Source: Candidatus Kaiserbacteria bacterium
GTDB taxonomy: Bacteria > Patescibacteriota > Minisyncoccia > Phycocordibacterales > UBA2100
NCBI GenBank assembly: GCA_017134395.1
Contig: CP070993.1
Location: 320,210-384,209, forward strand
Length of the DNA: 64,000 nt
Reading direction: 5' to 3'
Every line of letters starts with the position of its first letter. The stretch's first letter is position 1. Positions 1,726-58,208 of the stretch are shown piece after piece. Both the position numbers and the translations under genes were made by a program. Under the pieces are notes generated by a model. The model saw only the letters and a program-made list of their open reading frames with translations. It ran no database searches and was not told the origin of the DNA.

Positions 1726-1744
1726 AAAGCACTCTGTGAAAACC

Positions 1745-1795
1745 AAAACGAATGCCTCATCCGCCAGCTGGCGGATGAGGCATTCGTTTTGTGGC
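1745..1795. terminator. bidirectional rho-independent terminator between the convergent pilin and transketolase genes
   Basis: A perfect 19-bp stem (aacgaatgcctcatccgcc / ggcggatgaggcattcgtt) with a 4-nt loop. An A-run lies upstream and a T-run downstream (cgttttgtgg), so it can function on both strands. Confidence 0.75.
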
Positions 1796-6199: not shown

Positions 6200-6227
6200 A
6201 TATATGGACATCGGATGTCCATATATA
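6200..6227. repeat. REP-like hairpin palindrome, family A copy 1 (tatatggacat-cgg-atgtccatata)
   Basis: 11-bp perfect arms around a 3-nt centre. It is intergenic, between the divergent gap and RAYT genes. The centre (cgg vs ccg) is the reverse complement of copies 2 and 3, so this copy is inverted relative to them. Confidence 0.6.
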
Positions 6228-6293
6228 GGATTACCTTTCATGTTAGTACCGTTTAGTATTATTACACGTCATCCTCTTTTTCCTTCTCCTCTA

Positions 6294-6334
6294 TCCCCAC
6301 ATATATGGACATCCGATGTCCATATATGTGGGGA
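6294..6334. repeat. REP-like hairpin palindrome, family A copy 2 (41-nt perfect palindrome ccccacatatatggacat-ccg-atgtccatatatgtgggg)
   Basis: 19-bp perfect arms. It sits 18 nt upstream of the RAYT-like gene start. Confidence 0.65.
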
Positions 6335-6351
6335 TACGTTAAGATAGAATT

Positions 6352-7002
6352 ATGTTCTTCCATGTACTGAATCGTGGTGTAGAAAAACGACCTATAGTCC
6401 ACGATGATATTGACCGAATACGTTTTGTTCATGACCTTTTCATATTCAACAACAAGTGCTCTGTAGACCCAAATCATAGGCTTAAAGAAAATCCATTTGG
6501 TGACCAAGGTAGAGACCCTTTAGTGCATATACATGCGTGGTGTCTTATGGATAATCACTATCACCTACTTCTCTCTCCTGTCGATAATGATGTCGCAAAT
6601 ATTTCGCTTTTCATGAAAAAGTTAAATATGGGGTATGCAAAGTACTTTAATGAAAAATATGAGCGCTCGGGCTACCTGTGGCAAGGAAAGTACAAAAAGA
6701 TAGAAATAGAAAGAGATGCACATTTTCTCTATATCCCTTTCTATATCCATCTTAACCCGCTTGACTACACCCATCCAAATTGGCGCAACGGATCTATTAA
6801 GAATCTAAAAAAGATGTTGTCTGATTTATCTTCATATCGCTGGAGTAGTTACCTAGATTATATGGGCACCAAAAATTTTCCTTCTGTTATAGAAGAACAA
6901 ACATTACATGAAGTGCTCGGTTCGTCATCTAGTCAGAAAAAGCAAATTGCTCAAATTGTTACACAAGCAGATGTAGCTACTCTCTCGAACAACTTCGAAT
7001 AA
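6352..7002 (+). CDS. HuH-family Y1 transposase, REP-associated tyrosine transposase (RAYT) / IS200-like TnpA family
   Basis: 216 aa. The N-terminus is FHVLNRG.EKRPIV, the HuH motif is CLMDNHYHLLLSP, and the C-terminal region is GYAKYFNEKYERSGYLWQGKYK (catalytic-Tyr WQ..Y region). It is flanked on both sides by the family-A palindromes. Confidence 0.65.
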   Translation: MFFHVLNRGVEKRPIVHDDIDRIRFVHDLFIFNNKCSVDPNHRLKENPFGDQGRDPLVHIHAWCLMDNHYHLLLSPVDNDVANISLFMKKLNMGYAKYFNEKYERSGYLWQGKYKKIEIERDAHFLYIPFYIHLNPLDYTHPNWRNGSIKNLKKMLSDLSSYRWSSYLDYMGTKNFPSVIEEQTLHEVLGSSSSQKKQIAQIVTQADVATLSNNFE

Positions 7003-7052
7003 GAACCTCGTTTTGATGATTCTTTCATACGTTTATAGTGTATTCACATCGT

Positions 7053-7091
7053 ACACAAATATATGGACATCCGATGTCCATATATTTGTGT
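7053..7091. repeat. REP-like hairpin palindrome, family A copy 3 (acacaaatatatggacat-ccg-atgtccatatatttgtgt)
   Basis: 18-bp perfect arms. The outer arm sequence differs from copy 2 (acacaa vs ccccac) but is compensated on the other arm, which indicates selection for hairpin structure. It lies between the convergent RAYT and giant gene. Confidence 0.65.
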
Positions 7092-7095
7092 TGGG

Positions 7096-7135
7096 TTAAT
7101 TAAATTTAATTTAATTTAATCTTATCTTATCTTAT
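7096..7135. repeat. pentanucleotide tandem repeats (TTAAT/TAAAT)x5 followed by (CTTAT)x3
   Basis: ttaat taaat ttaat ttaat ttaat cttat cttat cttat. The last CTTAT unit overlaps the stop codon (7132..7134) and last codon of the giant gene. Confidence 0.7.
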
Positions 7136-10100
7136 ATTGTTGAGTCGGTAGTGGTTGCTGTTTCTTCTGCAGGTGTGTCTGTTGCCACTGGTTCAATGAC
7201 TTCGTCCACTGTGTCCTCTACCACTTCCTCTTCTACTGTTTCTTCTACTACAGGTTCTGTTGTGTCGTTTACGACTGGTTCAGTACTTGTGGCTGTAGTG
7301 TCTTCTACAACTTCTTCTTCTACGATAACGGGGTCTGTACTGGTTGCTGTGTCGTCTTCAATGACTACGGCAGGAGTTGAAGTGGCTGTGTCTTCTACTA
7401 CTGGTTCTTCAGTTGGTGTTCCTGTTCCCACTATCACGGTGCGTTCGATTGTTGCTGTTTGTTCGTTGGTGTCTGTAGCACTGTAGGTAATGGTGTGGGT
7501 GGCATCTGTGGTGGTGTCTATATCTATAGTGGTGACTGCTTCACCGTTGAGGGTGAGTGTGATGCTTAAGTCGTTACCGTCTGCGTCTTGTGCGGTGATA
7601 CCGAGGTCGCTGTAGTTAGCGTTAAGAGCAATTTCAGCGGGGTTGGTTCCGATGAGGGTGAGGGTTGGTGGGGTTGAAGTAGTTGTTGATGTAGCTTCTG
7701 TTTGAGTGGTTGCTGAAGCGACACCGGCGAGCTGTGCCTCTACCGCTACGAGTCGCTCTTCAAGTGCCGCAATTTGTATGTCCTTAGAACTCTGCCAGTC
7801 AATGAGTTCGGCGATCCTTTTTGTATTCTCCTGCACAATCACCCACAATTCTTTAATTGCCTGTATTAAATACAAAGGTAAGTCAGAAAGGTTAGTATCA
7901 AAATATTCTGTTCCATTAATAGTTGTTGTGCCTACCATTTCAGGGAACGTAACCTTTAATTCTTGTGCAATGAAACCAGAAATACGGCGACTTCGTGTTT
8001 CTTCATCATATCCAGTCAATTCGTTATAGTTATAAGTTACTGGACGTAATTCACTAATTCTTTCGAGGGTAGTAGTATCCTCTGTCGATAACTCGGTAAT
8101 GTTTTCCTTTAGGCGTCGATCGGAATAGTTCGTCCATGCAGTATACCCATTTGCTGCAGGCTGGCCGTTTAATTGAAGTTTATACGTTGGGTTTGTTACA
8201 CCAATACCGACTTCGCCAGCGGGGTCGATAACTATTGCATCATTAGTTATACCACTACCGTAACTATTTGAAGTTCCAAAATGCAATTCCGTTCCAGAAG
8301 GAGTTATCTTTGCTGCTATTCTTGCTAAAGGTACAGCGCTAGATCCAGACGCACCAGCAAAATCAATACTATTGAAATAATTTGCTGTATATGGACTACT
8401 TATTCTTAATACACCATCACTGGTACCAGTAAAAGATGAGATAGATGTTCCTTCTACATGCAATTTCGTGTCGGGAGTATCAATACCAATACCGACGTTG
8501 CCACCTTCAAGAATACGCATGCGTTCGGTTAGTGAACCTGCTGAAGGAGTAGTTGAGAATGTTAAATACCCTTGGTAGTTTGATGAAGCAGTACTTCCTA
8601 CACCCATAGTTATGCTTGAAAGGTCTTGGCGAGCCACTGTACCGGTTGTTGTGATGGTATTTTTAAGAACGGGACTCACACCAGAAACGGCAAAGTTAAC
8701 GGTTGAGTCATTAGAACCAAGGTTAACTGAGAGCTTTGATTCTGGCGTTGTGGTGCCGATACCGACGTTGCCAAGTAGATAGTTGTTTCCTGTACCATCT
8801 ATGGAAAGAGCACCATCTAATTGTAAGTCACCAGCGCGAGATACACTTCCGACAACTGTTGCAGCACCATCTCCAAATTTTATCCCTCCACCAGTAGAGC
8901 CTTCGTCCCAGTTTAAATACACACTTCCCCCTGCGGTAATTGGGTTTATGACGGTATTTACATTGTCTGTCAGTCGAAGTACGTGTGTACCGGCGTCCGC
9001 GATAATGCTTCCGGTAACGTTTATATTTCCTTGTACATCAAGTACTTGCGATGGTGTCGTCGTACCAATACCCACACTACCTTGTACTGCCAAACCATTG
9101 TCGAGCTCGGTTGTGTAGTATGAATCTCCAATTGAAACTCCACCTATTACACCTACGTGACTTCTATCGTATACGCCACTACCTGGGTCGAGCACAATAC
9201 CCGTAGCAAAAGACACTTGTAGTTGTTGATACGTATTTGCTGTCCATGCACCTGCAGTTCTGTAAATTCCGTACCCGGAAGCAGTATGCCAGTAAATACC
9301 TTGACTTCCATCAGTCGTGACATTGTCACCAAAGGTTATTTGCCCTGTCGTTGATAAGTCTAAGTCTCTCGCGGGAGTTGCCGTACCAATACCGACGTTA
9401 TCAGTCCCCGTTGCTAAGTACACATCAGTACCGCCATCAGTCCACCCACCGCCAGATGATGCCGAGAAGTCAGTCCATGCGCCTGCGTTGTTTTTATATT
9501 GAATAGTTCCTGCGTTGTCGCGGAAACCGTAGCCAGTAGTGCCCGTGGTATCGCCCCAGTTGATGTAGCTTGAGGCTGTAAGACCGATGTTGCCTGCAAC
9601 ATCGAGTTTGTGGTCTGGTGTTGAATCTCCAATACCGACGTTGCCACCAACAAGATGCATAATATTTGCCGCGCCTGCACTGAAGAACAGACGGTCAGTA
9701 GCATGATCGTATTGAATACGTCCTATGTCATTATCACTCGGATCACCAAACAAAACCGAACCAACACTTGATGCAGTATTGAAAATGGTCAAGCCAGTAT
9801 TGCCGCTACTTTCAAGAACAAGTTCGTCGCCATTTGAAATTGGACTTCCTACCGCACCAGCGGAACTGTCATAAATCCATACTTTTGCTGAAGGCGTCGT
9901 GGTGCCGATGCCGACGTTGCCTGCATCGTTTACATACAGTTCAGGGTTTCCTGAGATAGTGCCTCCTCCCCATATACCAATACCACCATTTGAACCATCG
10001 CCGTAACCACCAATCGCTCCAGAATATACATCTGATGATCCTTGGAAGGAAATAATCTGCCCGCTCCCTGCCACGGAAACATTCTGTGTATTAGTGTCGA

Positions 10101-13100
10101 GAGTTAGTAGATTTACTATAGAACCATTACTTCCATTTTCTACCAATTGCAATTTCGTAGCTGGGGTGGTGGTTCCGATACCGACGTTGCCGGTGTTGGT
10201 AAAGGTAAGTACATCACCTGCACCATCAATAAAGAGTCGCCCATCATCACCAGTAGGGTTATATAACCAAGCATTACTACCTGAGCTATCACGTGGTCCT
10301 GCAAGGAAGCCTGCACGCGAATCATTACCCGAACGTACAACACCGATAACATCAAGTTTTTCAGTTGGTGTCGTGGTTCCGATGCCGACGTTGCCTGCGG
10401 TGTAGCTGATGTCGGGGCTGTTGTGTGTCCAGAGACCGTTACCGCCGTCAATGCGGGAGCCGGTGAAAGAAGTATATGCACTCCAGCCATTTATATCTTT
10501 ATTGCTTGCACTCGATTGATGGACGTAGACTTCGAAATAATCTGTTGTTCCATTTGCATCTACTACAACACTCACTTGATTCGTTCTAAAAGTACCTGTC
10601 GAAGTCTTATAGTCACTGCTATATAATGCCCCATTCTTGTAAATTGCCATATATGTCTGGTCACTATCTGAGACACTCTCGAATCTTGTTTTTGTTGTTA
10701 ACAAATATTTACCAGCAACCGTTGGGGTAAATCTATCACTCGCAAAATCAGAGTTAGTATCAAAGTGCTCTGTTGTCCAAGCCACCTTTGTCCATGTATT
10801 TCCTGGGATGCTTTGAGCCACATTGTTTCGATGTACCGAGAAGGATGGTGAAATACCGTCCCCTGCGGTGGCAAAGGAGAGGTTGCCACTGGCGTCAGTG
10901 GTGAGGAACTGTCCTGCGGTACCGTCAGCAGTTGGGAGGGTGAAGGTGGTGTTGCTGGTGATGGCGTCTGGTGCCTTCAGAGCAACATAGTTGTCACCGT
11001 TAGCTTCGAGCTCTTCAAAGCGTACTTCACCGGTGTTGCCTGCGGAGGTGCCGAATGGATTAAGTGAAAGTGCTGATGCTGATTCATCAAAGAATAGCGG
11101 TGCGTCACTTGTTGTTCCTCCAATGGCAAGGTCGTCGGTGAGTGAGGTGAGGTAGGTGGTGGTGCCACCGTCGGTGAAGAGTGCGGCACCACTGCCTACT
11201 GCACTACCATTCCAGTACAAACTACCACTAACGTTGTAGAGTGCGTTAACGGTAGTTGCAGGAGTCGTTGAGGCAAGTGAGAGAGCGCCATTAACTGAGA
11301 GTTTGGTGGTGGGGGTGGTGGTGCCGATACCGACGTTGCCTGAGGAGTTGATAGTCAAGTCGCTACCTGAACCAGTTCCAAATTGCACGGCGTATTCTCC
11401 ACGTATAACCATAGCGTTCGTAAGTGCATCGCTAAAGACTTGACCTGGTGTCGCGTAACCAGAATACCCAACCAAAGCGTTTGAATTGTTTTTATATGTT
11501 ATGTACCCAGCAAGATCTGAACCTTGGAAAATAGCGAGGTCAGGGTTGTTTTTATAAAGATGTAATAGCGCTTGAGGGGATGTGGTGCCGATACCGACGT
11601 TGCCTGTACTGTCAATCACCAAATCTGAAGCTGAGTTCGTCCATAAATGTAGGTCACCAGTTGTTTGGTGAACACCTATATTCGCTTCTTGATCTCCGGC
11701 ATTATCGAAGAACGCTAGACCTGGGTAACCACCAGGTGTACCGATTCTTACTGCGTCACCACTACTTATTCCCGTTTTTACACTTAGACCCCAACCAGCC
11801 AACGTAGATGTGCCAATTCCCACATTCCCATTGCTGACATCTGCGAACAACGCTGGTGTACTTGAGGTGCCGACGCGGAAGTCACCCCAGACGTCCAGTT
11901 TAGATGCGGGGGAAGAGGTGCCGATACCAACGTTGCCTGATGAAAGTGTTGATTGAGTACCATCAAGACCTGTACCGTAAATGAGATTTCCAATGACTAA
12001 TTGATTATTGGCTGTTGCGCTCGGTACAGCCACGTTGTAACCAATAGAAATGTTATTTGCACCACTTGTTATTTGGTTTTGTGCTCCAGATAAAGTTGCT
12101 GCACCAATAATAGTGTTATTTGAACCAGTAGTAACTCCATATCCTGATTTGAATCCGAGGAAGGTGTTGTAGTTGCTGCTTGTTGCTGCTGAATACCCAG
12201 ACTGTGTACCAACGTACGTTCCTCCTTCGTTATAATAGTTACTTAAACCTGCTGCTGCTGCTGCACCGACAGCTACTACACTATCTGGTGATGTATTGAA
12301 TCTTAAGGTTCCAATTGCATTACTTAAACCACCAATAGCAACGTTTGAAGAACCGTCAATATTTCCGATACCAGTATAGTATCCAAGAAACACATTTGCG
12401 TTACCAGTAGTGTTGTTAAGCCCTGCATTTGCTCCAAGAAATGAATTGGCAAACCCAGTGGTGTTGTTCATTCCTGATTGTACTCCAATAGCAATACTGC
12501 TCCCACCAATATATGCTGCTCCGCCCGCAGTTGAACTTCGCAGTGCGCGATACCCGATAGCTACGTTGCTTGCCGTTGATGTGGCATTCTCGAGCGCCTG
12601 ATAACCAACCGCAACATTCTTGGTTCCAGTTGTAAGTGAGGAAAGAGCACTCGTTCCTAAAGCGGTGTTTTCATTTCCTGTATGTGTTGTATTGCCAGTG
12701 TTACCAACAAATAGTGAACCCGTAGTTGTGCTTGCTTGCAATATTGTGTTTCCCTCTAACTTGTAACCGTTGCTAGTGTTTATGTAACCAAGTACATCTA
12801 GTTTGGAGCTAGGATTAGTAGTGCCGATGCCGACGTTGCCTGCGCTTGTGACAACCATTTGGTCATTAACACCATTTGTTCTGAATGAGAATCCGTTGCC
12901 AACGTTATCGTAAATTATCCTACCCATAACAGCACTGTCTGTGTCACCAAAATCTAAGAATGATTTTGTAGTAGGTGAGCTAATTATAGAAACTATAGTG
13001 TCACCGCTTCTTTGGAATGAAGCCACCGTTTGTGCAGAAGCAGTTATTGCTGTTCCACTTTGGACGACCTGCAGATTAGTACTTGGTGAGTCTGTTCCGA

Positions 13101-16100
13101 TACCGACGTTGCCTTGATTCATTATTACGTCTCCATCTGACTGAACAAGCAGACTGTCTTGCCCGGCTCCAGCTTGAACAGTAAACGGATAAACGCTTCC
13201 AGCTGTCAAATCTCTAAGGCTAAAATTACCGCCCAGAGAATGAACAAACCATTCCTGATTAGATGCATCACTTTCTTTAAACACTATACCTGGATCATTT
13301 CGCGTAATTCTAAGTTTTTGGTTTGAATCTAATCCATAAGTTGATGCGTCATTTATTGTCAGGGCTGTGCCAACTTCGAGTAATGCACCGCTACCAGATA
13401 TATCTAACTTTGAAGACGGACTCGCTGTACCTATACCCACATTCCCACTACTTACATCAGTAAACAATGCAGGAGTGCTTGAGGTTCCGACACGTAAGTC
13501 GCCCCAGACGTCGAGGGTTGATGCAGGTGAAGTGGTGCCGATACCGACGTTGCCTGTACTTCCGTCTAGCATCAGTAGCCCAGGATAAGACGTTGATGGA
13601 CTGAATGCTATATCACTAGAACCAGAAGCTCCTCTAACAACAAGATTTTTTGTATTTAAATCTGAAAGTCCGGTGTCTCCTACTTCAAAAGAGAAACTTT
13701 GCTGATTACCCGATGTAGTTGAGCCACCAAACAACTGTACTAGACTTGAATCTAAACCTATGCCGTCATAACCAAATTTGCTTACACCAGCAACATGCAG
13801 TAGTGAGTCAGGTGTTGTGGTGCCAATACCGACGTTGCCTGTATTACCCTCCACGAAGAGCATACCGCTACCAACATTTAAGTCAGTGTCGGAATCAAGC
13901 GTAGCGTTAATATCACTCGTGCCTCCAGGCTGGAAAACAATGTTACCTGGCGGCTGTAAGGTAGCAGTACCATCTAATTTCACTTCAGCATTTGCTCCAA
14001 CTATCGTTTGGTTGCCAGAATTGTATCCAATTAGGTTAACCGAGGTTCCAGTCGTCAATCTCGATTTCAAGTATTGATTATTATCTATCTGGATATTACC
14101 TCCCACAACTTCGAGTTTTTGTTCAGGAGTTGTTGTACCGATACCGACGTTGCCTGAAGTATTATTGATATTTAGATTACCAGCATCAAGTGCATTGTTC
14201 CCTCCAATAGATGTATAGCCATCCTCGGCCAAAAGATAGCTTGTTGTATCGTCATCAGAAATAGTGATTACTGCATTGTTATCAGAACTATTAAACAGTG
14301 CCACCGCATTGTAAGTATTAGAGTAGACTCTTAGAGGATTAGCTACTGCCGTTTCGTAAATAGAAAGTGTTGCGTCTGGGGTTGTGGTACCAATACCGAC
14401 GTTGCCGGAGGAATCAATGGTTAGCCTCTCTGTTGCAGTAGTCCAAAGTGATAAATCGTTTGCATTATTATCGTATACGATTCGTCCCATTGTTTGACTT
14501 CCGCTATCACCAAAAAAGATACTAGTGTCTGATGACGTTCCACCCACAATAGATATTCCGGCTGGTCCAATGCCTTCAACAACCAACTCATCCGCACTAC
14601 TAGATACAGCCGGAGCTCCTGATACTGCGCTTGATATGTGCAACTTCCCCAGTGGCGTCGTAGTACCAATACCGACGTTACCCGTACTGGTAATTCGCAG
14701 GCGTTCTGCACGATTAGAACTCGTAATAGTACCTGTGGTGAACGCGAGGCCGTATGCTGCTCCTGTTGCACTGTCTGAGATTGCGCTGATTTCAGCTCCG
14801 ATACCATCTGCATAGGTACCTGTGTAGCTCGCATCATTTGTGATGAAGTTAAGAGAACCTATTCCATCTCCTGTGGTGCGCGCTCCTTGTGTAGAAATGG
14901 AGAGTGCTGTTCCTGTGAGAATTGAGTCTGGATTGGTGGTGCCGATACCAATATTTCCACTCTCATTAACCGTTAAGCGGTCTTGTAGTGTTCCACCTGA
15001 ATCTGAAACCTGTAGCTTGAAATCGCCACCACTACGTTGGAATGCTGCCTTATTTGTAGAGTTATAGGTTATTTGAAATTGTGGCTGGTCTGTCGATAAT
15101 ATCTCTAGGGCAGTGTCTGGACTTGCTGTCCCAATACCAACATTACCTGAGCTTCCTTCGACGAATAATGCATTGACTTCACCAACTCCTTCTACTCTAA
15201 AATCAATGTCTGCTCCGAGTTCGTTGAAAGTGTATGAAGTGGCTAATGCTCTTGAGACCTCTACACCGCCAGCATAGGTTCGTATACCATTAAGGCTATC
15301 CTGGATATAAAAACCTTCTCCGGTAGCTAATGCGTTATTACCTATCCATCCACCATTTACGTCACCTGCAATTATTATACCTTCATGTACTGAATCTGAA
15401 TCTTTAAATCGAGCGAGAACACCGCCGTTTTCGTTATGAACATCAAGTTTGTATGAAGCAGAAGTTGTACCAATACTTACGTTGCCATTTGGGAAAAATA
15501 CAGTACCAACATTATTCGCAGCTCCCATTACTTGAGTAAGATTGGTTCCTGAGTAAATACCAAATCCATTATTTGTATCCCAATTGTGAGATATCACGGA
15601 ACGATAGCTGCTAGGACTGCTAGCATTTGTGAGCTTTACACTAGGATCACTATTGTAAATATGCAATGTCTCTTCTGGCGTCGTGGTACCTATACCAATG
15701 TTGCCAGAGAAGAAACCGTCAATGGTGTACAAATCTTGCCATTGCTTAGATGCAGTACCCAGATCATTTGCATCATTAAAATATGGAGAGAAATCGCTTG
15801 TTAAAAATTGATACTCCCAATTATCATTTTGTCTAACAAATATCTGCCCGTCTCGTATATCAAAGAGATCGCCGCTATCTTTACCGAAGTTACCACCATT
15901 AACACCATCGTATGCATAGATAGTACCCGTAGCTGCACCAAGATCTCCTCCGACATTTAATCCCGTTGCTATAATTACGTCGCCTTCTACATCCAACTTC
16001 GCTCCTGGACCTGTCGTTCCGATACCTACATTACCTTCTATAATCGCACCGTTAGATGGAGCGACAACATTGTTATAGCCAGAACCTACTCGTAATGCTC

Positions 16101-19100
16101 CCTGCACATCAAGTTTGTTAGAAGGAGTTGGATCACCAATACCAATCATATTCGCACTTGAGTCAATGTAGAGCGTATTGTTGTCGAAATCCAAATCAGC
16201 ACTGTTGGTGTCGAGATCGAAGGTGGTGGTGGCGTCTACGGTGAGTGCATCCTTGAACTCAGTGAAGTCGAGTGTGTCTGCGTCGATGAGACTTGCATCA
16301 ATAGTGGTGGTTGAGACGACACCTGAGCTGTTGGTGGTGAGGATGCCTCCGGTGAGTGCAGCAAACTGTACAGAGCCGGTGGTGGTGAGTTGGTTGGCAG
16401 GGGTGGTGGTGCCGATGCCGATGTTGCCTGTGTTTGTTATTCTGAATCTCTCTGCACCACCAGTTTGAACGTTGAAGTCTCCTCCAGTTGCTACTAAATT
16501 AACGAGTCCAGTTCCTGTTTTTAACTGCAATGCAGTAAATCCTCCGTCAGTTTCTATTACAGCAGGTGTACCGGCTGATGCTTGGTACACGATAAGTTTT
16601 TGACTTGGGCTCGCCGTCCCAATACCTACATTCCCACTACTTACATCGGTAAACAACGCTGGTGTGCTTGAAGTACCTACACGTAGGTCACCCCAGACGT
16701 CGAGTTTTGATGCTGGCGTCGTTGTGCCGATTCCGACATTTCCTGCACCTGTTACATATAAATCATCGCTGTTAACGGCAAATACGCCATCTGTGGCGTC
16801 ATGAATAAATACCGTTCCTCCGTCAGTATTCAAATACAAAGAACTGGCAACGCCGGACCCAATTGCTTGAATTTCATTATTATCTATAGCGATAAAATCA
16901 GTATTTGAAGCACCAACCCTTAATGCTCCACCTCCCGAGGAACTGACATCGGTTGAATCCCATACTACAAGTTTTGCCTCTGGTGTTGAAGTACCGATAC
17001 CGACGTTGCCTGAAGTATCTATAGATAGTCTTTCAGTATTCCCAACCATCAAATCTAGTTGATGAGATGATTGTGTACCAAATTTTGCTGCTTGAGGTGT
17101 TCCTGAATCAAACCATCCAGATAATTTTGTCGCTGCATCGTCACCATAAATGGTAACGGCTCCACCATAAGTACCTCCTGCGATATCGAGATTGGTTCTG
17201 AAGTTCATGTTTCCAGGTGTACTAGTACCTATACCGACGTTGCCGGCGCTCGTTATTCTTAACCTCTCAGATGTATCGGATGCACCGGCTGATCCAGTGT
17301 GTAAAGAAACATAATCTTGTCTGAAAACTGCATTTAGAGCAGAGCTAGTGGCTGTTTGATTATTATTTCCCAATTTAGACGAATAAATTCTTATATCGTC
17401 TCCATAGTTTCCCGTATATGTGGAGCCTATCCAAGCTCTGGATGCATTTGTTCCTACCCCCCCTCGTGGAAAGCGAATCCAGCCGCCTTCCTTCCCGTAA
17501 GCTCCACCAGCTGCAATGTCAAAAATATTTGTGGAGTCATCTGCACCTCCAACCAATATACCAAAGGGAGTTCCTCCTGTTATTGTTGTATTCTCACTGT
17601 AGAATCCTGTGGTTGCTAATACCTCCCCAACTACTGCAAGGTTTGCTACAGGACTAGTAGTGCCGATGCCGACGTTGCCTGAATCTGTTATCCGCACCGC
17701 TTCAGTTGCTCCATCTGGGAAAAATCCTATTTTCTTTGAAGCTGTACCTGCATATATATTTACGTCACCAGTAACACTAGTTCCTGAATGCCCGATAATT
17801 AAGTTTTCCGTTGCATCATATCCGATAAGATTTCTATCAAAACCACTAGCTAAACTCCCCTTTAAGAATTGATTATTATCTAAAAGGATATCGCCTTCAC
17901 TAACATGTAATTTTTCAGCGGGTGTAGTAGTTCCAATACCGACGTTGCCAGAGGCATCAATCCTTAACGCCTCGCTACCACTTGTGGAAAAAGCAAGCGA
18001 ATCATTTGCGTGTTCATAATCTATGAGACCTGGACTTCCACTTGTGTCAGAGAAAGTAAGTACTGAATTCCCCGTATCTCCTGCAACATTGGCTTTAATA
18101 TCAACCTGTGTATATCCAGATCCAGAAGTTCTTTCAAACGTAGAGACTAGTTGATCTGCACTTGTTACATGCAGTTTCCCAGAGGGCGTAGTAGTACCAA
18201 TACCTACGTTGCCAGTGTTATCAAGTGTAAGTCGAGGTGTTGATGTCAAATCAGTACCATCAGTAATACGGAATGTATCGTCTACATTGTAATATCCTAC
18301 TGAGTAATCTGTACCACTTCCGAATCGTAGTGGTGTGTTGTTATTTACACGCAGGAATCCACTACCCCACTGCAAAAGATCTGCGCCATTGCTTTTTATA
18401 TAACCATTGACTAAAGCGTTTACATTCAAATATCCTGTCGCATCAACATAAAATTCGCCATAACGTGTTGAACGGTCATCGTACCCGTATACTCGCAAAC
18501 CGTTGTCATCTGCGTTTTGGGCAATCGTCAGACCGAGTGCTGGAGTGGCAGTGTTGATACCAACATTCCCACTACTCACATCGGTAAACAATGTAGGAGT
18601 GCTTGAAGTACCTACACGTAGATCACCCCAGACGTCGAGTGCTGATGCGGGTGAAGTGGTGCCGATACCTACGTTGCCTGAAGTATCTATTGTTAATCTT
18701 GCACCAGCATTTGTTATTAATTGAAGAGGATGACTAGTCTGTGTTCCAATCTGCCCAGCTGACGCTTGTGCCTGTACTTTTACCTTTGCACCTCCTGAGC
18801 GCTCTGCAAGAATATCTGCATTTCCTGTATCAAACACATGTAAAGTACCGTCTGGAGTAGTCGTTCCAATACCGACGTTACCGCCTGTAAGGCGAATGTA
18901 CTCCGTACCACGGTTACTTATTGTCGTATCAACACCAAACGCATAGACTGATCCGAAGTTAATGGTTGAACCATCGTACCCTACAAATCCATAGTTATTA
19001 GTTGCACTTCCTGTTCCAAATTCAATTCCTGCAGGACGTCCTGTTGAGTTTGAGTGTACTCCAACAAGCACTGTTGTTCCTGGGTTTCGTACATCCAGCT

Positions 19101-22100
19101 TATATTCTGAATCTGGTGTTGCTTGAATACCTACACTCCCATTAGAATCAATAATAAACGGAGTTGTATCGCTTGCTGAATCGTTCACAACAAAACTGTT
19201 GCCCGTACCTGTGTTAGTGATGGAGAGTACTTCAGTACCATCTGCTGCTATGTCAGTTGAAGCATCGAGTGCAAGCGCATCCTTAAATTCAGTGAAATCG
19301 AGCGTGTCGGCAGTAACATCAGCACCGTCAACGGTGGTGGTTGAGACAACACCTGAGCTGTTGGTGGTGAGGATGCCTCCGGTGAGTGCGCTAAGAGTAA
19401 GTGCTGATTCAAGTATGGTGTTGCCGGTGATACGTGCGGTGCCTGAGACATCTAGTTTGTATGATGGCGCAGCGTTTCCAAGACCTAACTGCCCAGTATT
19501 ATCAATATAAACAGTCTGAGTGTTATTGGAACCTCCTCCACGCAACTCTAACTTATGTGAATTAGAGTTCTCACCGATGTATGTATTTTGGTTACTAAAA
19601 TAGATATGAGAATTATCGGGACTCAACCCTATAGAGCCAGCAACATCGAGCGCATACGATGGGGTGCTGTCGCCAATCCCCACATTTCCACTACTCACAT
19701 CAGCAAACAATGCGGGAGTACTTGAGGTACCGACGCGTAGGTCGCCCCAGACGTCGAGTGCTGATGCGGGTGAAGTAGTGCCGATACCGACGTTGCCACC
19801 ATCTGCTATCACAATTCCGTCGCCAGCACCTTCACCCCATACATTGAGGTAACCAAAATTAGAGGCTTCGTTGTATCCGATAACAAGGGCGTCATCTGCA
19901 ATTGCGCTTTGTCCTATTGCTATGAAGTCAACATCGTTATCATCTGCATTAGTATTAAAGAAGCTTGCTATGTTTACCGTTCCACTTGAATCAGCTTCTA
20001 CATGCAATTTGGAGTTTGGCGAGGTGGTGCCAATACCGACGTTGCCTCCGGTTGATGGATTGATGTAAGTTTCTGCTCCTTCCAACCATAAATTTTTGTA
20101 AGAAGATGCGCCACGATCGTATGCCTGAACAAATCCATATCCGTTATATCCTAATTCGACTCCAGCACCGGAGGCTGTCATTGACGGCGCTCCAGTTGCA
20201 CGAAGATTTCCGGATACATCTAGAGTTGCCACAGGCGACGCCACCCCCACCCCAACTCTATTCGTTGAACTATCAATCACGAGAGTGTTTGCATCAAAGT
20301 TGAGATCAGCAGAGTTGGTGTCGAGGTCGAAGGTGGTGGTGGCGTCTACGGTGAGTGCATCTTTGAATTCAGTGAAGTCGAGTGTGTCTGCGTCGATGAC
20401 ACTTGCGTCGATAGTGGTGGTTGAGACGACACCTGAGCTGTTGGTGGTGAGGATGCCTCCGGTGAGTGCGCTGAGAGTAAGTGCTGATTCAAGTATGGTG
20501 TTGCCGGTGATACGTGCGGTGCCTGCTACGGTGAGTTTTTCAGCGGGAGTGGTGGTGCCGATACCGACGTTACCTAAATTATTTATCACAATCCCTTTAC
20601 TTGAACCATCAAAACCGTCTCTAGTAATTTTTAAGTTGTCTTCAGAATAATCAACCCCAATGAAACCGTATCTGGGTGTGCCATCAGCATCAGATGCCAT
20701 TCTGATGAATGAGTTGTCTGTATCATTTGTACTCAACCCAATATCTGCAATTCCGGTTGTTGAAAGTACATCTAATTTCCTACCTGGACTACCTGTACCA
20801 ATCCCAACCCTGTTCGTTGAACTGTCAATGTACAAGGTGTTTGAGTCGAAGTTTAAGTCAGCGGAGTTGGTGTCGAGATCGAAAGTTGTGGTGGTATCTA
20901 CCACTAGTGAGTCTGAGAGCTGTGCGAAGTTGAGTGAGTCGTTAACGATGTCTAAGGTGACGGCTGCTGATTCAGTACCAGAATTAGAAACCGTAAAGAA
21001 AGCGTTGCCTGCGTCTGCAAGCGTTGCGAGATAATTACCTGTTGTGTGTGTACCGAGTGTGATGAGGTTGTTAAGTGTGGTGGTTCCTGTGCCTCCGTTG
21101 GTTACAGGAAGAACTCCAGTGACCTCAGTGGTGAGATCAACCGAGGTACCAAGTGTTGTTTCGAGTGATCCTGAATTGAGAGTAAGTCCAGTACCAGTGA
21201 AGTCGGTGATTGTTTCTGAGTTGGTGCGGAATCCACCAGAGGCTCGTGTGACACCAACAACGTCGAGTGGATATGATGGAGTTACTCCTATACCAAAATT
21301 ACCAGATGAATCGAAACGAGCCACCTCTGTATTTGACGTACTAAACAATATCGCGCCAGCTTCCCTGTTGATAATAGCTAGATTTAGTCCGTTTCCTTGA
21401 ATAAGGCTACCGTCAGCAGCCAAAGTGCCTGTTGTTCCGTTAGTAAGTTTTAATTCGGGAAATGAAGTTGCATTGATGTGTAGCCCTGTTCCTCCACCAG
21501 CAAGAGCAGGTGCCGCGGTACCAATACCCACATTTCCTGCTATTTCTATGTCCCCATCACTTTGTGCTACCAACAATTCTGTACCTGCAGAATTTTCCAA
21601 ACGGATTGAACCACCACTTACTATTGGCCTGATATTTGAAAGCCACGCTATGTCAGCACCGTCATTCAATTGTAAATCTCCATCGATATGCAACTTCGAT
21701 CCAGGTGTTGTGGTACCAATACCGACGTTGCCTGCTCCATTAATGATCATTTGTGTATCGAGAGTTCCGTTCGAAGTGGAAAATCGCAAATCGCCGTACT
21801 CTGCACCAGATTCATTTTCAGAACTTATACGAGCACCTATATAATTTTCAGGACTTGCATCATTATTATCCCAATTCTGAAAATCTAAACGTCCATAATC
21901 TGCTCCCGCACTTTGCTTTGCGCCTCCAATGGTAACGGTGCGTTGTACATCAGCACTTCCCCCTCTATCTGCAACTATGTTCCCACCGTAAATATGTAGT
22001 TTCTCACTTGGTGAAGTAGTACCGATACCGATGTTGCCATCCACACCAACAGTCAGTACGCGACTACCACTGAAATCATCAGCTACAAAAATAGGTGCAG

Positions 22101-25044: not shown

Positions 25045-25502
25045 AAAGTGTTTGATGACTTGTTCGGAACTCCGTTATATCTATATAATACTAGGTATTT
25101 CGGCACTCTCCCAACTCTCGCTTGGGGATAAAGTCTGCGCCTTTTTTTGACAAAAAGGACTCTGAAAACAGTCAAAAACCTTCTACTAAAAATAATCAAT
25201 ATCTGGCAATCTCAATTTTTATGCATAATCAAAGTTTCCCAGATACTTTTTTATCTTGAAGAACCTTCCTAACTCACTGCAACTATTTTTATTACTCGAT
25301 AAGCACGATAACCACCTCCTAACCCTAACAACCCAGGAAAGTACTCAGTGACTTCACAGTCCCTTGTAAGCAGCCAAAGATTACCATTGTCGAGATCTTT
25401 AAGGGACAACGATGTGTTCTTCTTAGCGTCTAATTGTTCTTAGAAATATAAACAAAGCGGTTTGTGGGCAGCATTTGTATAGAATTATATAAAATGGCTC
25501 TA

Positions 25503-25561
25503 AATCTCGGCTAGTGCAGGTATACAGTGCCAATCTCGGATATTATCTCGCTATATCTCGG
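25503..25561. promoter_or_regulatory. cluster of four direct ATCTCG[G/C] repeats in the 807-bp region upstream of the giant gene
   Basis: atctcgg at 25503, 25533 and 25555, and atctcgc at 25545. Spacing is irregular. The sequence between and around them is AT-rich, with TATAAT-like hexamers nearby. Confidence 0.3.
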
Positions 25562-25680
25562 TTATCCGAGGTTCATATTTGCACATCTTATCTTGCACTT
25601 TGCTGCCCTTTAGGCGTTTAAAACTAAATAATTCATACTACCATGCAGGAAAAGAGAGCTTATAAGTCCAGTAATCTGCG

Positions 25681-25717
25681 AGTACCAATTCAGACATGGG
25701 ATGTCTGAATTGGTACT
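25681..25717. repeat. 37-nt perfect palindrome agtaccaattcagacat-ggg-atgtctgaattggtact (family A-related core GACAT-NNN-ATGTC)
   Basis: 17-bp perfect arms. It lies between the stub-paralog stop and the giant gene start. Confidence 0.6.
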
Positions 25718-25769
25718 ATCCTGTATAACTCACCCCTCCCACACACATAATGCCTACATACCATCAAAA

Positions 25770-25797
25770 ATATATGGACATCGGATGTTCATATATG
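25770..25797. repeat. REP-like hairpin palindrome, family A copy 4 (tatatggacat-cgg-atgttcatata). It doubles as the likely intrinsic terminator of the upstream minus-strand gene.
   Basis: One arm mismatch relative to copies 1-3. On the minus-strand transcript the hairpin is followed by UUUUUGAUGG. It lies 55 nt downstream of the stop of gene 25852..26904. Confidence 0.55.
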
Positions 25798-25851
25798 TGA
25801 ATTTTTTAGGAAACGTAAGAGGAGAAAGCTAAAAAAGCTATTATTGTAGTT

Positions 25852-26904: not shown

Positions 26905-26973
26905 TTAAGCATTGTACAATATCCGCCGAGATATGCGAGATCCCCTCTAAAATGTGTGGATAACGTACCTCGC

Positions 26974-28416: not shown

Positions 28417-28457
28417 GTAGGCGTCATGGTAAAACGATTTGAACTAAAAAGCCACCT

Positions 28458-29435: not shown

Positions 29436-29558
29436 ATTATTTTTTATCCCTTCTGGGATTAATTACTATAGTCTAGAATCTTCTTAAACCCTAATTTTTT
29501 ACAAAAAAGGCGCTTTAATTAACTAAAGTTTGCCAAAAAGTCACCACCTATTCTTTAG

Positions 29559-29867
29559 CTAACAAGTGCGCTTTGCAGTTTGCTCGAGTTTGCCTATCAT
29601 GAGACCGTAACCACCTGATCCTTCCTCCATTGCTTTGCGAATTCGTGACACTGTGGCAGAACTCATGCCTGTTACACGCTCTATTTTTCGGTAACTGGCA
29701 CCGAAAGTAAGCATCTTTGCAGCCTTCCAACGGTTTGCAGCCTCTTGAATTTCACTTTTAGTAAATATGTCACCAAGAAATGCACGTGCCTCTGCAAGGT
29801 TGTCTAACTCGAGCACAGAAAGCATGAATTCATCAGTGTCGTCGTTTATCCATTTGTGTTCTTTCAT
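29559..29867 (-). CDS. TrpR/YerC/YecD-like small DNA-binding protein
   Basis: 102 aa. The C-terminal HTH LTFGASYRKIERVTGMSSATVSRIRK resembles the Trp-repressor-like YerC family. Confidence 0.45.
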   Translation of the reverse strand: MKEHKWINDDTDEFMLSVLELDNLAEARAFLGDIFTKSEIQEAANRWKAAKMLTFGASYRKIERVTGMSSATVSRIRKAMEEGSGGYGLMIGKLEQTAKRTC

Positions 29868-29935
29868 ATTGCTTTATTATAATAAAGCGTTTCGTGAAGT
29901 AAAGCACTCTGTTTGTGGGTAACTCCCCTTTTAGA

Positions 29936-30262: not shown

Positions 30263-30268
30263 ACGTAT

Positions 30269-30799: not shown

Positions 30800-30900
30800 G
30801 AATCGAAGTGTATCACACACCTTTCGTATCAAAAAATAAAACCGGCAGTGTCACGGGAAATGACACTGCCGGTTTTATGTATTATATATTTAGTAGTGCT

Positions 30901-53770: not shown

Positions 53771-53833
53771 ACTTTTGGAATTCAGCGTGCCCGGAGTACT
53801 GCTTTTTAAGTAACCGGACTACTTAATTTATGG

Positions 53834-58128: not shown

Positions 58129-58178
58129 ACGTACAAAACATCCAATTAATTGGATGTTTTGTATTTGATGATGAGCGA

Positions 58179-58208
58179 TAACCGGACTACTACTTAGTAG
58201 TCCGGTTA
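58179..58208. repeat. hairpin palindrome taaccggactact-actt-agtagtccggtta (family B motif, shared with two sites near the second RAYT)
   Basis: 13-bp perfect arms with a 4-nt loop. It is nested with a second inverted pair, tacttagta/tactaagta (58191..58215). A further 12-nt palindrome, ccaattaattgg, lies at 58143..58154. Confidence 0.55.

What the first reader, a model, noticed from the sequence alone, without database searches (positions are those of the whole stretch)
6200..7091. RAYT-like HuH transposase tightly bracketed by REP-like hairpins with compensatory arm changes
The 216-aa ORF has HuH (HYHLL) and WQ..Y motifs. It is flanked by 41-nt (6294..6334) and 39-nt (7053..7091) perfect palindromes sharing the core ATATATGGACAT-CCG-ATGTCCATATAT. 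A third, inverted copy lies at 6200..6227 and a fourth at 25770..25797. The outer arm sequences differ between copies (ccccac.. vs acacaa..) but each copy stays perfectly self-complementary. That pattern indicates selection for hairpin structure, the hallmark of REP elements recognised by their cognate RAYT.
Basis: partly seen in the sequence, partly recalled or inferred. Interest (0 to 1): 0.65.

Follow-up and report, generated by a model that had tools for sequence, protein, structure and literature searches.

The report
Hairpin-bracketed RAYT-like transposase gene in Patescibacteria
A single-copy tyrosine (HUH) transposase-like gene in a candidate-phyla-radiation bacterium is bracketed by its own perfectly palindromic DNA hairpins, which also occur elsewhere in the genome; this is a new variant of the known REP/RAYT system, not a new kind of system.

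Summary
Perfect palindromes lie at 6200-6226, 6292-6336 (45 nt, longer than reported) and 7053-7091, and a one-mismatch copy lies at 25770-25796. None is expected by chance. The 216-aa ORF passes Pfam Y1_Tnp, and its AlphaFold model best matches the E. coli RAYT-REP complex (4ER8).

Related loci extend the picture:
- About 90% of 79 homologous genes from Patescibacteria carry a hairpin ending roughly 12-15 nt before the ATG.
- Most also carry a second hairpin at the stop codon, with the same core.
- The core differs between lineages, and all 13 consensus stem pairs show double (compensatory) changes.
- Solo copies are dispersed: 12 in the relative UBA2100, mostly intergenic at gene 3' ends, some in frame inside housekeeping genes.
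- Near-identical genes keep the same flanks, and each assembly has one gene. That is RAYT-like, not IS-like.

It differs from canonical REPs in four ways. There is no GTAG foot. The palindromes are perfect. The C/G centre flips freely (CCC<->GGG between relatives). The protein motifs fit TnpA-Y1 subclass 2.1, which was reported to lack REPs.

This is a new variant of a known kind, of moderate interest. Binding, cleavage and mobility are inferred, not shown.

The parts
6200..6226 (.). Distal upstream palindrome ATATATGGACATC-G-GATGTCCATATAT (13-nt arms, centre G). With the next hairpin it forms a doublet with centres 101 nt apart.
   Evidence: -9.4 kcal/mol, z -5.2. In the 98%-identical relative L064 the arms are 16 nt, because the left flank has become complementary to the right.
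6292..6336 (.). Proximal upstream palindrome TATCCCCACATATATGGACATC-C-GATGTCCATATATGTGGGGATA (22-nt arms, centre C at 6314). It ends 15 nt before the ATG.
   Evidence: -21.7 kcal/mol, z -9.2. It is 100% conserved in L064 while the adjacent spacer is only about 77% identical. A hairpin sits at this position in about 90% of 79 homolog loci. The outer TATCCCCA / TGGGGATA recurs in distant homologs such as L118.
6340..6345 (+). -10-like hexamer TAAGAT, exactly 6 nt before the ATG. This is the putative promoter of a leaderless mRNA (inferred).
   Evidence: Of 60 non-redundant homolog loci with a -10-like hexamer, 33 have it (mostly TATAAT/TATACT) exactly 6 nt before the ATG and 14 have it 7-8 nt before, directly 3' of the upstream hairpin. 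The generic sigma-70 scan found nothing here.
6352..7002 (+). Gene for a 216-aa Y1 (HUH) tyrosine transposase-like protein. NHYH is at nt 6553-6564 (H69, H71), WQ at 6679-6684, and YIHLNP at 6742-6759 (Y131 is the putative catalytic Tyr). RWSS lies in the C-terminal tail.
   Evidence: Pfam PF01797 at 31.2 bits against a GA of 23. NCBIfam REP_Tyr_transpos at 41.6 bits, below the 80-bit cut-off. H69, H71, Y131, N135, P136, W110 and Q111 are invariant in 59 homologs. The AF2 model has pLDDT 88 and pTM 0.86. The top PDB fold match is 4er8_A (RAYT + REP), followed by the IS608, ISDra2 and IS200 TnpA structures.
7053..7091 (.). Downstream palindrome ACACAAATATATGGACATC-C-GATGTCCATATATTTGTGT (19-nt arms, centre C). 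It starts 50 nt after the stop codon and lies between the convergent ends of this gene and the 5970-aa gene.
   Evidence: -17.0 kcal/mol, z -7.7. In L064 an extra A in the left arm is matched by an extra T in the right arm, giving 20-nt arms. In most homolog loci this hairpin abuts or overlaps the stop codon, at -12 to +14 nt.
25770..25796 (.). Dispersed solo copy ATATATGGACATC-G-GATGTTCATATAT (one arm mismatch) in the 800-nt non-coding stretch upstream of the giant gene.
   Evidence: The flanking region 25852-30815 is syntenic at 82% nt identity with UBA2100 contig L011. That contig has a perfect 13-nt-arm copy at the corresponding place, so the site is old and vertically inherited.
25681..25717 (.). 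Related palindrome of another specificity subtype: AGTACCAATTCAGACAT-GGG-ATGTCTGAATTGGTACT (17-nt arms).
   Evidence: It closely resembles the CCAAATTCAGACATC-G-GATGTCTGAATTTGG hairpins that flank homologs L096, L097 and L122. No cognate gene of that subtype was found in the window.

Best explanation
This is a REPtron/TIRtron-type module of a Patescibacteria (CPR) genome.

The gene encodes a class-2 TnpA-Y1 (RAYT-like, subclass-2.1-like) HUH single-strand DNA endonuclease/transposase. It is resident and apparently single-copy. It is bracketed by its cognate palindromes, and further copies of these are scattered through the genome.

Shown here:
- The palindromes and their positions relative to the gene.
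- Their co-variation with the protein lineage.
- Compensated changes in the arms.
- Dispersed solo copies.
- The HUH/Y1 fold and motifs.
- A -10 box placed 6 nt before the ATG, directly after the upstream hairpin.

Inferred:
- When the DNA is single-stranded, for example on the lagging-strand template, each palindrome folds into a hairpin.
- The enzyme recognises the conserved top of the stem (GGACAYS-S-SRTGTCC).
- It cuts and rejoins the strand through Y131 and the H69/H71 metal site. In this way it copies or recombines hairpins into new sites: gene 3' ends and tolerant loops of coding genes.
- Because the upstream hairpin overlaps the gene's own promoter region, binding probably also autoregulates expression.
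- The near-perfect symmetry of every copy and the free flipping of the C/G centre suggest that one arm is regularly re-templated from the other, or that the whole palindrome inverts. Slow independent compensatory mutation is a less likely source.
For: Protein:
- Pfam Y1_Tnp is above its cut-off.
- The HuH, WQ and Y---NP residues are invariant.
- The confident model matches 4ER8 best.
- The motifs NHYH / WQ / YIHLNP / SS fit class 2, subclass 2.1, in Table 1 of PMC6006769.

Cognate hairpins:
- In 89 homolog loci the up- and downstream hairpins share a core within each locus.
- The core differs between lineages: GGACATC, GGACACG, AGACACG, GTCATC, CAGACATC, GCGACATC, GCCGACATC, GGACGTC.
- An alignment chosen only by gene position gives a 13-pair consensus hairpin in which all 13 pairs have both-sided changes.
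- Pairing extends to positions 11-17 at 95-44%, against 41-26% in shuffles. G-T pairs are not enriched, so the constraint is on DNA rather than RNA.

Dispersal:
- 63 loci in genomes carry the core. UBA2100 has 12 solo copies and CAYZRD has 8 copies, with one gene per assembly.
- 56 of 81 copies are intergenic. The split is convergent 15, tandem 26, divergent 4.
- In-frame copies sit in LeuRS, PurL, PheT, MurD, MiaB, MnmA, ComEC, TrmD and UDG.

Residency:
- Near-identical genes keep the same flanks.
- The divergent GAPDH/Y1 arrangement is conserved in L010.

Hairpins as recombination points:
- L010 holds a gene fragment (aa 1-55) bounded exactly by the upstream and the intragenic hairpin.

Symmetrisation and flipping:
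- A compensated indel separates the window from L064.
- The centre differs in 20 of 48 orthologous comparisons, including CCC<->GGG.
- The centre is C or G in 192 of 193 copies.
- The centre states of the upstream and downstream hairpins are independent: 16/13/11/9.

Promoter:
Against: - No activity is shown. Binding, cleavage and transposition are all inferred.
- The protein scores only 41.6 bits against NCBIfam's RAYT equivalog model, whose cut-off is 80. phmmer finds no solved relative.
- The hairpins lack the 5' GT[AG]G tetranucleotide that serves as guide and cleavage landmark in canonical REPs, and no conserved foot motif exists.
- They are symmetric, so there is no obvious strand or orientation cue other than the centre base.
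- Copy number is low: 4 in 64 kb, about a dozen in a relative.
- In LeuRS and UDG the in-frame copies add only +3 and 0 residues relative to homologs. That is not what a simple insertion predicts.
- UBA2100 has hairpins but no gene next to any of them. The gene may be missing from the MAG, or the hairpins may persist without it.
- Subclass 2.1 was reported to have no REPs (PMC6006769).
Confidence: 0.8

Rival explanations
1. The roughly 800-bp unit from hairpin through gene to hairpin is an autonomous IS200-like insertion sequence. It would move as a whole by single-strand 'peel and paste', with the two hairpins as its left and right subterminal ends.
For: - The size and layout resemble IS200, with hairpins at both ends of a lone Y1 gene.
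- Many contigs that carry close homologs are only 770-950 nt long, which is unit length. That could mean a collapsed repeat.
- A few pairs at 89-93% gene identity have unrelated flanks, namely L069/L099 and L076/L078.
Against: - The motifs are class 2 (NHYH, WQ, Y---NP), not the IS200 class 1.1 motifs (DH[VI]H, Y[IV]ENQ).
- The protein is 216 aa with a C-terminal tail, and no tnpB is nearby.
- There is one gene per assembly, against several solo hairpins.
- All pairs at 96% gene identity or more share their flanks.
- The GAPDH neighbourhood is conserved across deep divergence.
- The hairpin orientation cue (the centre base) is random relative to the gene. IS200/IS605 ends, by contrast, are strand-specific.
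Confidence: 0.07
2. The palindromes are now purely host or regulatory DNA elements, such as operators, cruciform-forming sites or 3'-end stabilisers. The Y1 protein would be a domesticated sequence- or structure-specific DNA-binding protein, for example an autoregulator. There would be no ongoing transposition, and dispersed copies would be ancient relics.
For: - The upstream hairpin abuts the -10 box of the gene in nearly all homologs.
- The sites are old. The 25783 site is shared with UBA2100, and the LeuRS copy is shared by proteins 79% identical.
- Copy number is low.
- The gene sits at a fixed locus.
- RAYTs in general are argued to be domesticated (PMC5581495).
Against: - The catalytic HuH and Tyr residues are invariant across the family. 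That argues for retained nuclease/ligase chemistry.
- Copies occur at different places in different lineages, including independent in-frame copies in the same TrmD loop in two frames and in the Y1 gene's own loop in different frames. So insertions recurred.
- There is no T-tract for intrinsic termination.
- Only Watson-Crick pairs are kept. That does not fit an RNA-level role.
Confidence: 0.12
3. The association is coincidental. The palindrome would be a generic Patescibacteria motif, such as a restriction/modification or uptake-type sequence, that merely happens to sit next to this gene.
For: The same 19-nt core is shared by very divergent CPR lineages. That is unusual for REPs, which are normally species-specific.
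Against: - The hairpin core changes together with the protein lineage, and the same core sits at both ends of each gene in about 70 of 80 loci.
- About 211 of 245 long perfect palindromes in 860 kb of these loci belong to this one family, and most of them flank the gene.
Confidence: 0.01

Closest known systems
REPtron: RAYT (TnpA-REP) gene flanked by REP/REPIN sequences. The E. coli YafM/TnpA-REP structure is 4ER8; Pseudomonas RAYT-REPIN systems are another example.
   Same: - Y1 HUH fold with the HuH and Y---NP motifs.
- Low-copy resident gene.
- Gene bracketed by palindromic repeats that are also dispersed, mostly extragenic at gene 3' ends.
- The repeat sequence co-evolves with the protein.
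- Occasional in-frame repeats inside genes.

   Different: - No 5' GT[AG]G foot.
- Perfect, fully symmetric palindromes with a 1-nt (sometimes 0- or 3-nt) centre that flips, instead of imperfect hairpins in defined inverted orientation.
- Tens of copies rather than hundreds.
- The core is conserved across a whole phylum-level radiation.
- The protein is below the NCBIfam RAYT cut-off and is longer (216 aa, with an RWSS tail).
TIRtron / TIRYT (Di Nocera 2013, PMC3733652), which corresponds to TnpA-Y1 subclass 2.1 (Quentin 2018, PMC6006769; Bertels group 1).
   Same: - The protein motifs NH[YF]H, W/F-Q, Y[IV]HLNP and the SS tail motif, and a length of about 220-240 aa, match the published subclass 2.1 signature.
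- The gene is flanked by inverted repeats at a fixed distance.
- The G-run (TGGGG) at the gene-proximal end of the upstream repeat recalls the published GGGGWSAS motif. The window has GGGGATAC, a 7/8 match.
- Some TIR families were described as wholly self-complementary and moderately abundant.
   Different: - Quentin et al. found no REP-like structures for subclass 2.1. Here almost every member has them.
- The Pfam HTH/Bac_DnaA_C domains reported for the 2.1 tail are not detected.
- Membership was judged from published motifs only, not with the authors' HMMs.
TnpA-Y1 subclass 2.4 (Cyanobacteria/Bacteroidetes), which has 'double-foot' REPs and REPs inserted in frame in its own tnpA gene.
   Same: - A palindrome copy lies in frame inside the transposase gene itself in part of the family (8 of 85 loci).
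- The symmetric REP architecture is similar.
   Different: - Here the intragenic copy sits before the HuH motif (aa 48-55), not between HuH and Y.
- The motifs differ: NHYH/YIHLNP here, against NH[IFV]H/YIxNNP.
- The window's own gene lacks the intragenic copy.
IS200/IS605 TnpA with subterminal hairpins (IS608, ISDra2).
   Same: Same catalytic fold, and DNA hairpins near both ends of the gene.
   Different: - Class-1 motifs are absent.
- There is no tnpB.
- The gene is not multicopy.
- Solo hairpins are dispersed without the gene.

Rickettsia palindromic elements (RPEs).
   Same: Palindromic repeats are found in frame inside conserved housekeeping genes, in surface loops.
   Different: - RPEs are 100-150 bp and have no known dedicated transposase.
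- Here the unit is 27-45 bp and is tied to a Y1 gene.

Membership tests
Y1 HUH transposase superfamily (Pfam PF01797) | Profile match above the curated threshold | tested here: met
   31.2 bits against a gathering score of 23, residues 58-133. The in-window paralog also passes, at 30.2 bits.
Y1 HUH transposase superfamily (Pfam PF01797) | HUH fold with the His-hydrophobic-His metal site and one catalytic Tyr | tested here: met
   H69, H71 and Y131 are invariant in 59 homologs. The AF2 model has pLDDT 88. Foldseek ranks 4er8_A first (E 4e-4, probability 1.0), then 2a6o, 2xm3 and 2f4f.
RAYT / TnpA-REP (class 2 TnpA-Y1) | Class-2 signature Y---NP plus the W[QE] motif | tested here: met
   YIHLNP (131-136) and WQ (110-111) are read directly from the sequence and are invariant in the alignment. 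They were compared with Table 1 of PMC6006769.
RAYT / TnpA-REP (class 2 TnpA-Y1) | NCBIfam NF047646 REP_Tyr_transpos equivalog score | tested here: not met
   41.6 bits against a cut-off of 80. So it is not an equivalog of the canonical proteobacterial RAYT.
RAYT / TnpA-REP (class 2 TnpA-Y1) | Gene flanked on both sides by its cognate palindromic repeat | tested here: met
   Window 6292-6336 and 7053-7091. The same holds in about 70 of 80 metagenome loci and 8 genome loci.
RAYT / TnpA-REP (class 2 TnpA-Y1) | The same repeat is dispersed in many extragenic copies in the genome | tested here: inconclusive
   Dispersed solo copies exist: window 25770, 12 in UBA2100 and 5 in CAYZRD. They are mostly intergenic. 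The numbers are tens at most, not hundreds. No complete genome of this organism could be scanned.
RAYT / TnpA-REP (class 2 TnpA-Y1) | Single or low copy, vertically inherited gene (not IS-like) | tested here: met
   - One gene per assembly among 9 assemblies.
- Pairs at 96% identity or more share their flanks.
- The GAPDH neighbourhood is conserved in L010.
Limitation: the assemblies are MAGs or contigs, not closed genomes.
Canonical REP | 5' GT[AG]G tetranucleotide at the foot of an imperfect hairpin | tested here: not met
   No position within 12 nt of the foot is conserved in 388 flanks. The stems are perfect.
Canonical REPtron | Flanking REPs in defined inverted orientation | tested here: not met
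   The only asymmetric base is the centre C/G. Its states upstream and downstream are independent: GC 16, CC 13, CG 11, GG 9.
TIRYT / TnpA-Y1 subclass 2.1 | NH[YF]H, W/F-Q, Y[IV]HLNP, SS tail motif, length about 238 aa | tested here: met
   NHYH, WQ (FQ in relatives), YIHLNP and RWSS, at 216-240 aa. This is motif-level only; the authors' HMMs are not available.
TIRYT / TnpA-Y1 subclass 2.1 | C-terminal HTH-like domain (Bac_DnaA_C / HTH_23 / HTH_28) | tested here: not met
   There is no such Pfam hit at E<=1. The model's tail is helical, but it was not compared separately.
TIRYT / TnpA-Y1 subclass 2.1 | Flanking TIR with the GGGGWSAS motif | tested here: inconclusive
   The window has GGGGATAC (7/8). 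Many homologs have TTTGGG(G) followed by TATAMT at the same place, so the match is not strict.
IS200/IS605 | Class-1 motifs DH[VI]H and Y[IV]ENQ, about 150 aa, several identical copies, often tnpB | tested here: not met
   The motifs differ, no tnpB is adjacent, and the gene is not multicopy.

The most novel reading that the evidence does not exclude
The palindromes may not be ordinary REPs. They could be substrates of a hairpin-templated ('rolling-hairpin' or terminal-resolution-like) reaction carried out by a bacterial Y1 HUH enzyme. The enzyme would nick at or near the hairpin, and one arm would be re-synthesised from the other.

This single mechanism would explain four observations:
- Every copy stays a perfect Watson-Crick palindrome whatever its outer sequence.
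- Indels are mirrored in both arms.
- The C/G (or CCC/GGG) centre flips between close relatives far more often than the arms change. This resembles the flip/flop of parvovirus termini made by HUH Rep proteins.
- Copies in coding loops overwrite sequence rather than simply adding length.

If true, it would be a new way for a chromosomal repeat family to propagate and homogenise, conserved across the Patescibacteria.
Probability: 0.15. Interest if true: 0.75.

Novelty: new variant of a known kind. Interest (0 to 1): 0.5.

Why it matters
RAYT/REP systems have mostly been studied in Proteobacteria and Cyanobacteria. Their function and mechanism of spread are still debated.

This family extends the theme to ultra-small Patescibacteria genomes, where intergenic space is minimal. 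It ties cognate hairpins to subclass 2.1, the largest RAYT-related subclass (of the twelve, only the IS200 subclass 1.1 is larger), which was thought to lack REPs.

It also offers an unusually clean natural experiment:
- Hundreds of lineages in which the gene carries the same short, perfect palindrome at two fixed positions.
- Lineage-specific cores, which should reveal the protein's specificity determinants.
- A flipping centre and mirrored indels, which constrain the reaction mechanism.

The in-frame copies in essential genes such as LeuRS, TrmD, PheT and UDG show that these elements shape protein sequences in reduced genomes.

None of this changes the category. It is still a Y1 transposase with cognate hairpins.

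Tried and rejected
- Sequence search of PDB with the protein gave no meaningful hit. Only the fold search linked it to 4ER8.
- Rfam on the whole window found only a tRNA. The terminator scan found none and the hairpins have no T-tail, so the intrinsic-terminator reading was dropped.
- The generic sigma-70 scan found nothing at the gene start. The family-wide -10 spacing was more informative.
- The viral contig scan for the core gave 0 hits, so there is no phage link.
- The exact-protein look-up gave nothing on record, so the source contig could not be identified.
- A search for a conserved foot, guide or target motif outside the hairpin found none, only a mild G-depletion.
- I tested whether the window's 6200/6292 doublet encloses a remnant of a gene N-terminus, as L010's doublet does. 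No similarity was found beyond the hairpins themselves.
- L085/L086 have a 100% identical gene but a 91% identical upstream flank, which looked like recent transfer of the unit. The identity profile shows an ordinary recombination mosaic that extends well beyond the unit.
- I tested whether in-ORF copies are clean insertions. LeuRS gains +3 aa and UDG 0 aa relative to homologs, so insertion boundaries and target sites could not be defined.
- The GGGGWSAS motif of TIRYTs matches only partially.
- Literature searches found no paper that links RAYT/REP to Patescibacteria.
Full report
**1. Checking the observation**

- 6200-6226: ATATATGGACATC-G-GATGTCCATATAT, 13-nt arms.
- 6292-6336: 22-nt arms, 45 nt in all.
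- 7053-7091: 19-nt arms.
- 25770-25796: the same core with one mismatch in the right arm.

Shuffled sequence gives no match to the 27-mer. As single-stranded DNA the four fold at -9.4, -21.7, -17.0 and -6.0 kcal/mol, with z-scores between -3.5 and -9.2.

The ORF 6352-7002 encodes 216 aa. It has NHYH at 68-71, WQ at 110-111 and YIHLNP at 131-136.

The outer arms of the two gene-flanking hairpins differ at three of six positions, and each difference is mirrored in the other arm.

**2. The protein**

- It passes Pfam Y1_Tnp, at 31.2 against 23 bits.
- It is below NCBIfam's RAYT equivalog cut-off, at 41.6 against 80 bits.
- A sequence search of PDB finds nothing.
- An AlphaFold model built on 59 homologs is confident, with pLDDT 88 and pTM 0.86.
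- The model's best solved match is 4ER8, the E. coli RAYT bound to a REP hairpin. The IS608, ISDra2 and IS200 transposases follow.
- H69, H71, W110, Q111, Y131, N135 and P136 are invariant in the family.

I compared these motifs with the published TnpA-Y1 classification (PMC6006769). NHYH / WQ / YIHLNP, an SS tail motif and a length above 210 aa fit class 2, subclass 2.1 (Bertels group 1, the 'TIRYT' group). This comparison is at motif level only, because the authors' models are not available here.

The family is large. A profile search of 1.84 billion cluster representatives gives 27,886 hits at E<=1e-3 and 520 at E<=1e-30.

**3. The organism**

Close homologs and the hairpin core occur almost only in Patescibacteria/CPR assemblies. 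Two contigs of MAG UBA2100 are syntenic with the window at about 80% nucleotide identity. A Tara Oceans contig (L064) carries the same module with a 98%-identical protein.

**4. The hairpins belong to the gene**

A metagenome scan returned 80 homolog loci, and the genome scan added nine with the gene.

- In about 70 of the 80 loci a perfect palindrome ends about 12-15 nt before the ATG, and a second one starts at or within a few bases of the stop codon.
- Within a locus the two share a core.
- Between lineages the core differs: GGACATC, GGACACG, AGACACG, GTCATC, CAGACATC, GCGACATC, GCCGACATC, GGACGTC and others.

To avoid selecting for palindromy, I took the 60 nt at a fixed distance upstream of the conserved N-terminus in 79 non-redundant loci. 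The consensus fold is a 13-pair hairpin, and every pair shows both-sided changes. One pair, for example, reads UA 29, AU 23, CG 14, GC 5.

Beyond the core, pairing continues to positions 11-17 in 95-44% of copies, against 41-26% when right arms are shuffled. G-T pairs are not enriched. The constraint is therefore on DNA self-complementarity, not on an RNA helix or a fixed double-stranded binding sequence.

**5. Geometry and promoter**

A -10-like hexamer, mostly TATAAT or TATACT, lies directly after the upstream hairpin. Of the 60 loci with such a hexamer, it is exactly 6 nt before the ATG in 33 and 7-8 nt before it in 14. In the window it is TAAGAT at 6340-6345.

This points to a leaderless transcript and places the hairpin over the promoter's upstream half. 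Autoregulation by the protein is a reasonable inference, but it is not shown.

The protein's C-terminus ends in Leu-Glu-stop in most members, abutting the downstream hairpin. In the window the downstream hairpin lies 50 nt further on.

**6. Dispersed copies**

The exact 19-nt core occurs at 63 loci in species-representative genomes. All but one, a probable chance hit in Streptomyces, are CPR.
- UBA2100, the window's relative, has 12 solo copies and no gene beside any of them.
- CAYZRD has eight copies and one gene.
- Each assembly with the gene has it once.

Of 81 copies, 56 are intergenic. They often fill the spacer. They favour convergent (15) and tandem (26) over divergent (4) gene pairs, as REPs do.

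The other 25 lie in frame in long ORFs. Pfam identifies these as LeuRS (twice), PurL, PheT, MurD, MiaB, MnmA, ComEC, TrmD (twice) and UDG. The core has no stop codon in any frame.
- The TrmD copies sit in the same loop in two genomes but in different reading frames.
- The LeuRS copy is shared by proteins 79% identical and adds only three residues.
- The UDG copy adds none.

The window's fourth copy (25770) is orthologous to a perfect copy in UBA2100, so sites persist through speciation.

**7. A copy inside the gene**

In 8 of 85 loci a hairpin of the locus's own core lies in frame at residues 48-55, in a variable loop before the HuH motif. It encodes M-D-I-G/R-C-P or, in other frames or cores, other peptides. 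The window's clade lacks it.

L010 keeps only a gene fragment (residues 1-55). It is bounded by the upstream and the intragenic hairpin, next to GAPDH as in the window. This is what a deletion between two hairpins would leave.

**8. Resident gene, not an insertion sequence**

Gene pairs at 96% identity or more share their flanks. The divergent GAPDH/Y1 arrangement survives deep divergence. The motifs are not those of IS200, and there is no tnpB. One apparent case of unit-specific identity turned out to be an ordinary recombination mosaic.

**9. Symmetry and flipping**

Between the window and L064 the spacer between the two upstream hairpins is only about 77% identical, yet the 45-nt hairpin is unchanged. 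The downstream hairpin differs by an extra A that is mirrored by an extra T.

Among 48 comparisons of orthologous hairpins:
- Every difference inside the stems is double (21 cases).
- The centre differs in 20 comparisons, including CCC against GGG with identical arms.

The centre is C or G in 192 of 193 distinct copies. Its state upstream is independent of its state downstream.

So the palindrome has one asymmetric feature, and that feature inverts often. Inversion or arm-to-arm re-templating explains this better than point mutation. Which process does it is not known.

**10. What it is not**

- There is no Rfam family.
- There is no terminator-like T-tract.
- There are no viral copies.
- There is no conserved GTAG-like foot or any flank motif.
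- The TIRYT motif GGGGWSAS is matched only approximately, by GGGGATAC.

**11. Comparison with known systems and verdict**

Functionally and architecturally this is a REPtron/TIRtron: a RAYT-like Y1 enzyme with cognate palindromic repeats. It is not a canonical RAYT/REP.
- It fails the equivalog threshold.
- It lacks the REP tetranucleotide.
- Its repeats are perfect, symmetric, few and phylum-wide in their core.
- Its protein signature is that of subclass 2.1, for which no REPs had been found.
- In-frame copies in the enzyme's own gene were reported only for subclass 2.4, and at another position.

No paper in the searchable library connects RAYT/REP with Patescibacteria.

I therefore rate it a new variant of a known kind. 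Interest is moderate (0.5). The catalytic and mobility steps remain inferences.

Noticed in passing
window 53078-53770 (-), with 53061-53074, 53787-53800, 53574-53590, 53810-53826 and 58179-58208: A second Y1_Tnp paralog (230 aa, 33% identical, NHFH / FQ / YVNLN) has its own, unrelated repeats. GTGCCCGGAG[CT]ACT sits just beyond both ends of the gene. GTAACCGGACTACTTAA occurs upstream of the start and again inside the CDS at the same protein loop where the main family carries its intragenic hairpin. A 30-nt palindrome of that motif lies 4.4 kb away.
   Followed up: partly
window 25681-25717: A 37-nt palindrome of the CAGACAT subtype lies 53 nt from the degenerate GGACATC copy. It matches hairpins that flank a different lineage of the same gene family (L096, L097, L122), but no such gene is in the window. 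It may be a relic of a lost second system.
   Followed up: partly
window 7132-25044 (-): A single 5970-aa ORF with at least 25 dispersed copies (spacings of about 108-1500 nt) of a unit containing G-N-V-G-I-G-T-T-x-P. It converges on the transposase-like gene. An 800-nt non-coding stretch (25045-25851) lies upstream of it.
   Followed up: no
window 1744-1791: A 48-nt perfect palindrome (24-nt arms, no spacer) of unrelated sequence lies between the convergent ends of a pilin-like (N_methyl) gene and a transketolase gene.
   Followed up: no
window 52057-52096, 58132-58163: Two further long perfect palindromes of other sequence. One (40 nt) lies in frame in a low-complexity linker of a ComEA-like (HHH_3) protein. 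The other (33 nt) lies 16 nt from the paralog-type palindrome. The window is unusually rich in long perfect palindromes.
   Followed up: no
L010 1677-1895: An N-terminal fragment of the gene (residues 1-55, 66% identical to an intact homolog) is bounded exactly by the upstream and intragenic hairpins. It lies next to GAPDH, as the gene does in the window. This looks like a hairpin-to-hairpin deletion product.
   Followed up: yes
L043 1936, L014 4270, L032 5321, L046 1195, L024 4408, L063 2395, L005 4921, L049 3747, L035 3228, L039 6823, L041 5276: The palindrome core lies in frame inside LeuRS (two genomes), PurL, PheT, MurD, MiaB, MnmA, ComEC, TrmD (two genomes, same loop, different frames) and uracil-DNA glycosylase. 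The length change relative to homologs is small or nil (+3 aa in LeuRS, 0 in UDG).
   Followed up: partly
L070 and L071 downstream of the gene; L126 upstream of the gene: There are tandem hairpin dimers. In L070/L071 two copies with opposite centres abut without a spacer, forming a 42-nt super-palindrome. In L126 a second, slightly degenerate copy follows the upstream hairpin.
   Followed up: no
L122 vs L123; L082 vs L088/L104: L122 and L123 have 100% identical genes and about 99% identical flanks, yet they differ in the centre base of the upstream hairpin (G vs C). L082 and L088/L104 are related loci with identical upstream arms, and their three-base centres read CCC vs GGG.
   Followed up: yes
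C-termini of homologs: Most family members end in Leu-Glu-stop (YTNGARTAR) although the preceding tail is poorly conserved. The stop codon is often the first bases of the downstream hairpin arm. The reason is unknown.
   Followed up: no
L044 (Streptomyces sp. NRRL WC-3742) 416-448: This is the only non-CPR genome hit of the 19-nt core. It is embedded in a GC-rich 33-nt palindrome (16-nt arms plus centre) inside an ORF, and no related gene was seen. It is probably coincidental.
   Followed up: no
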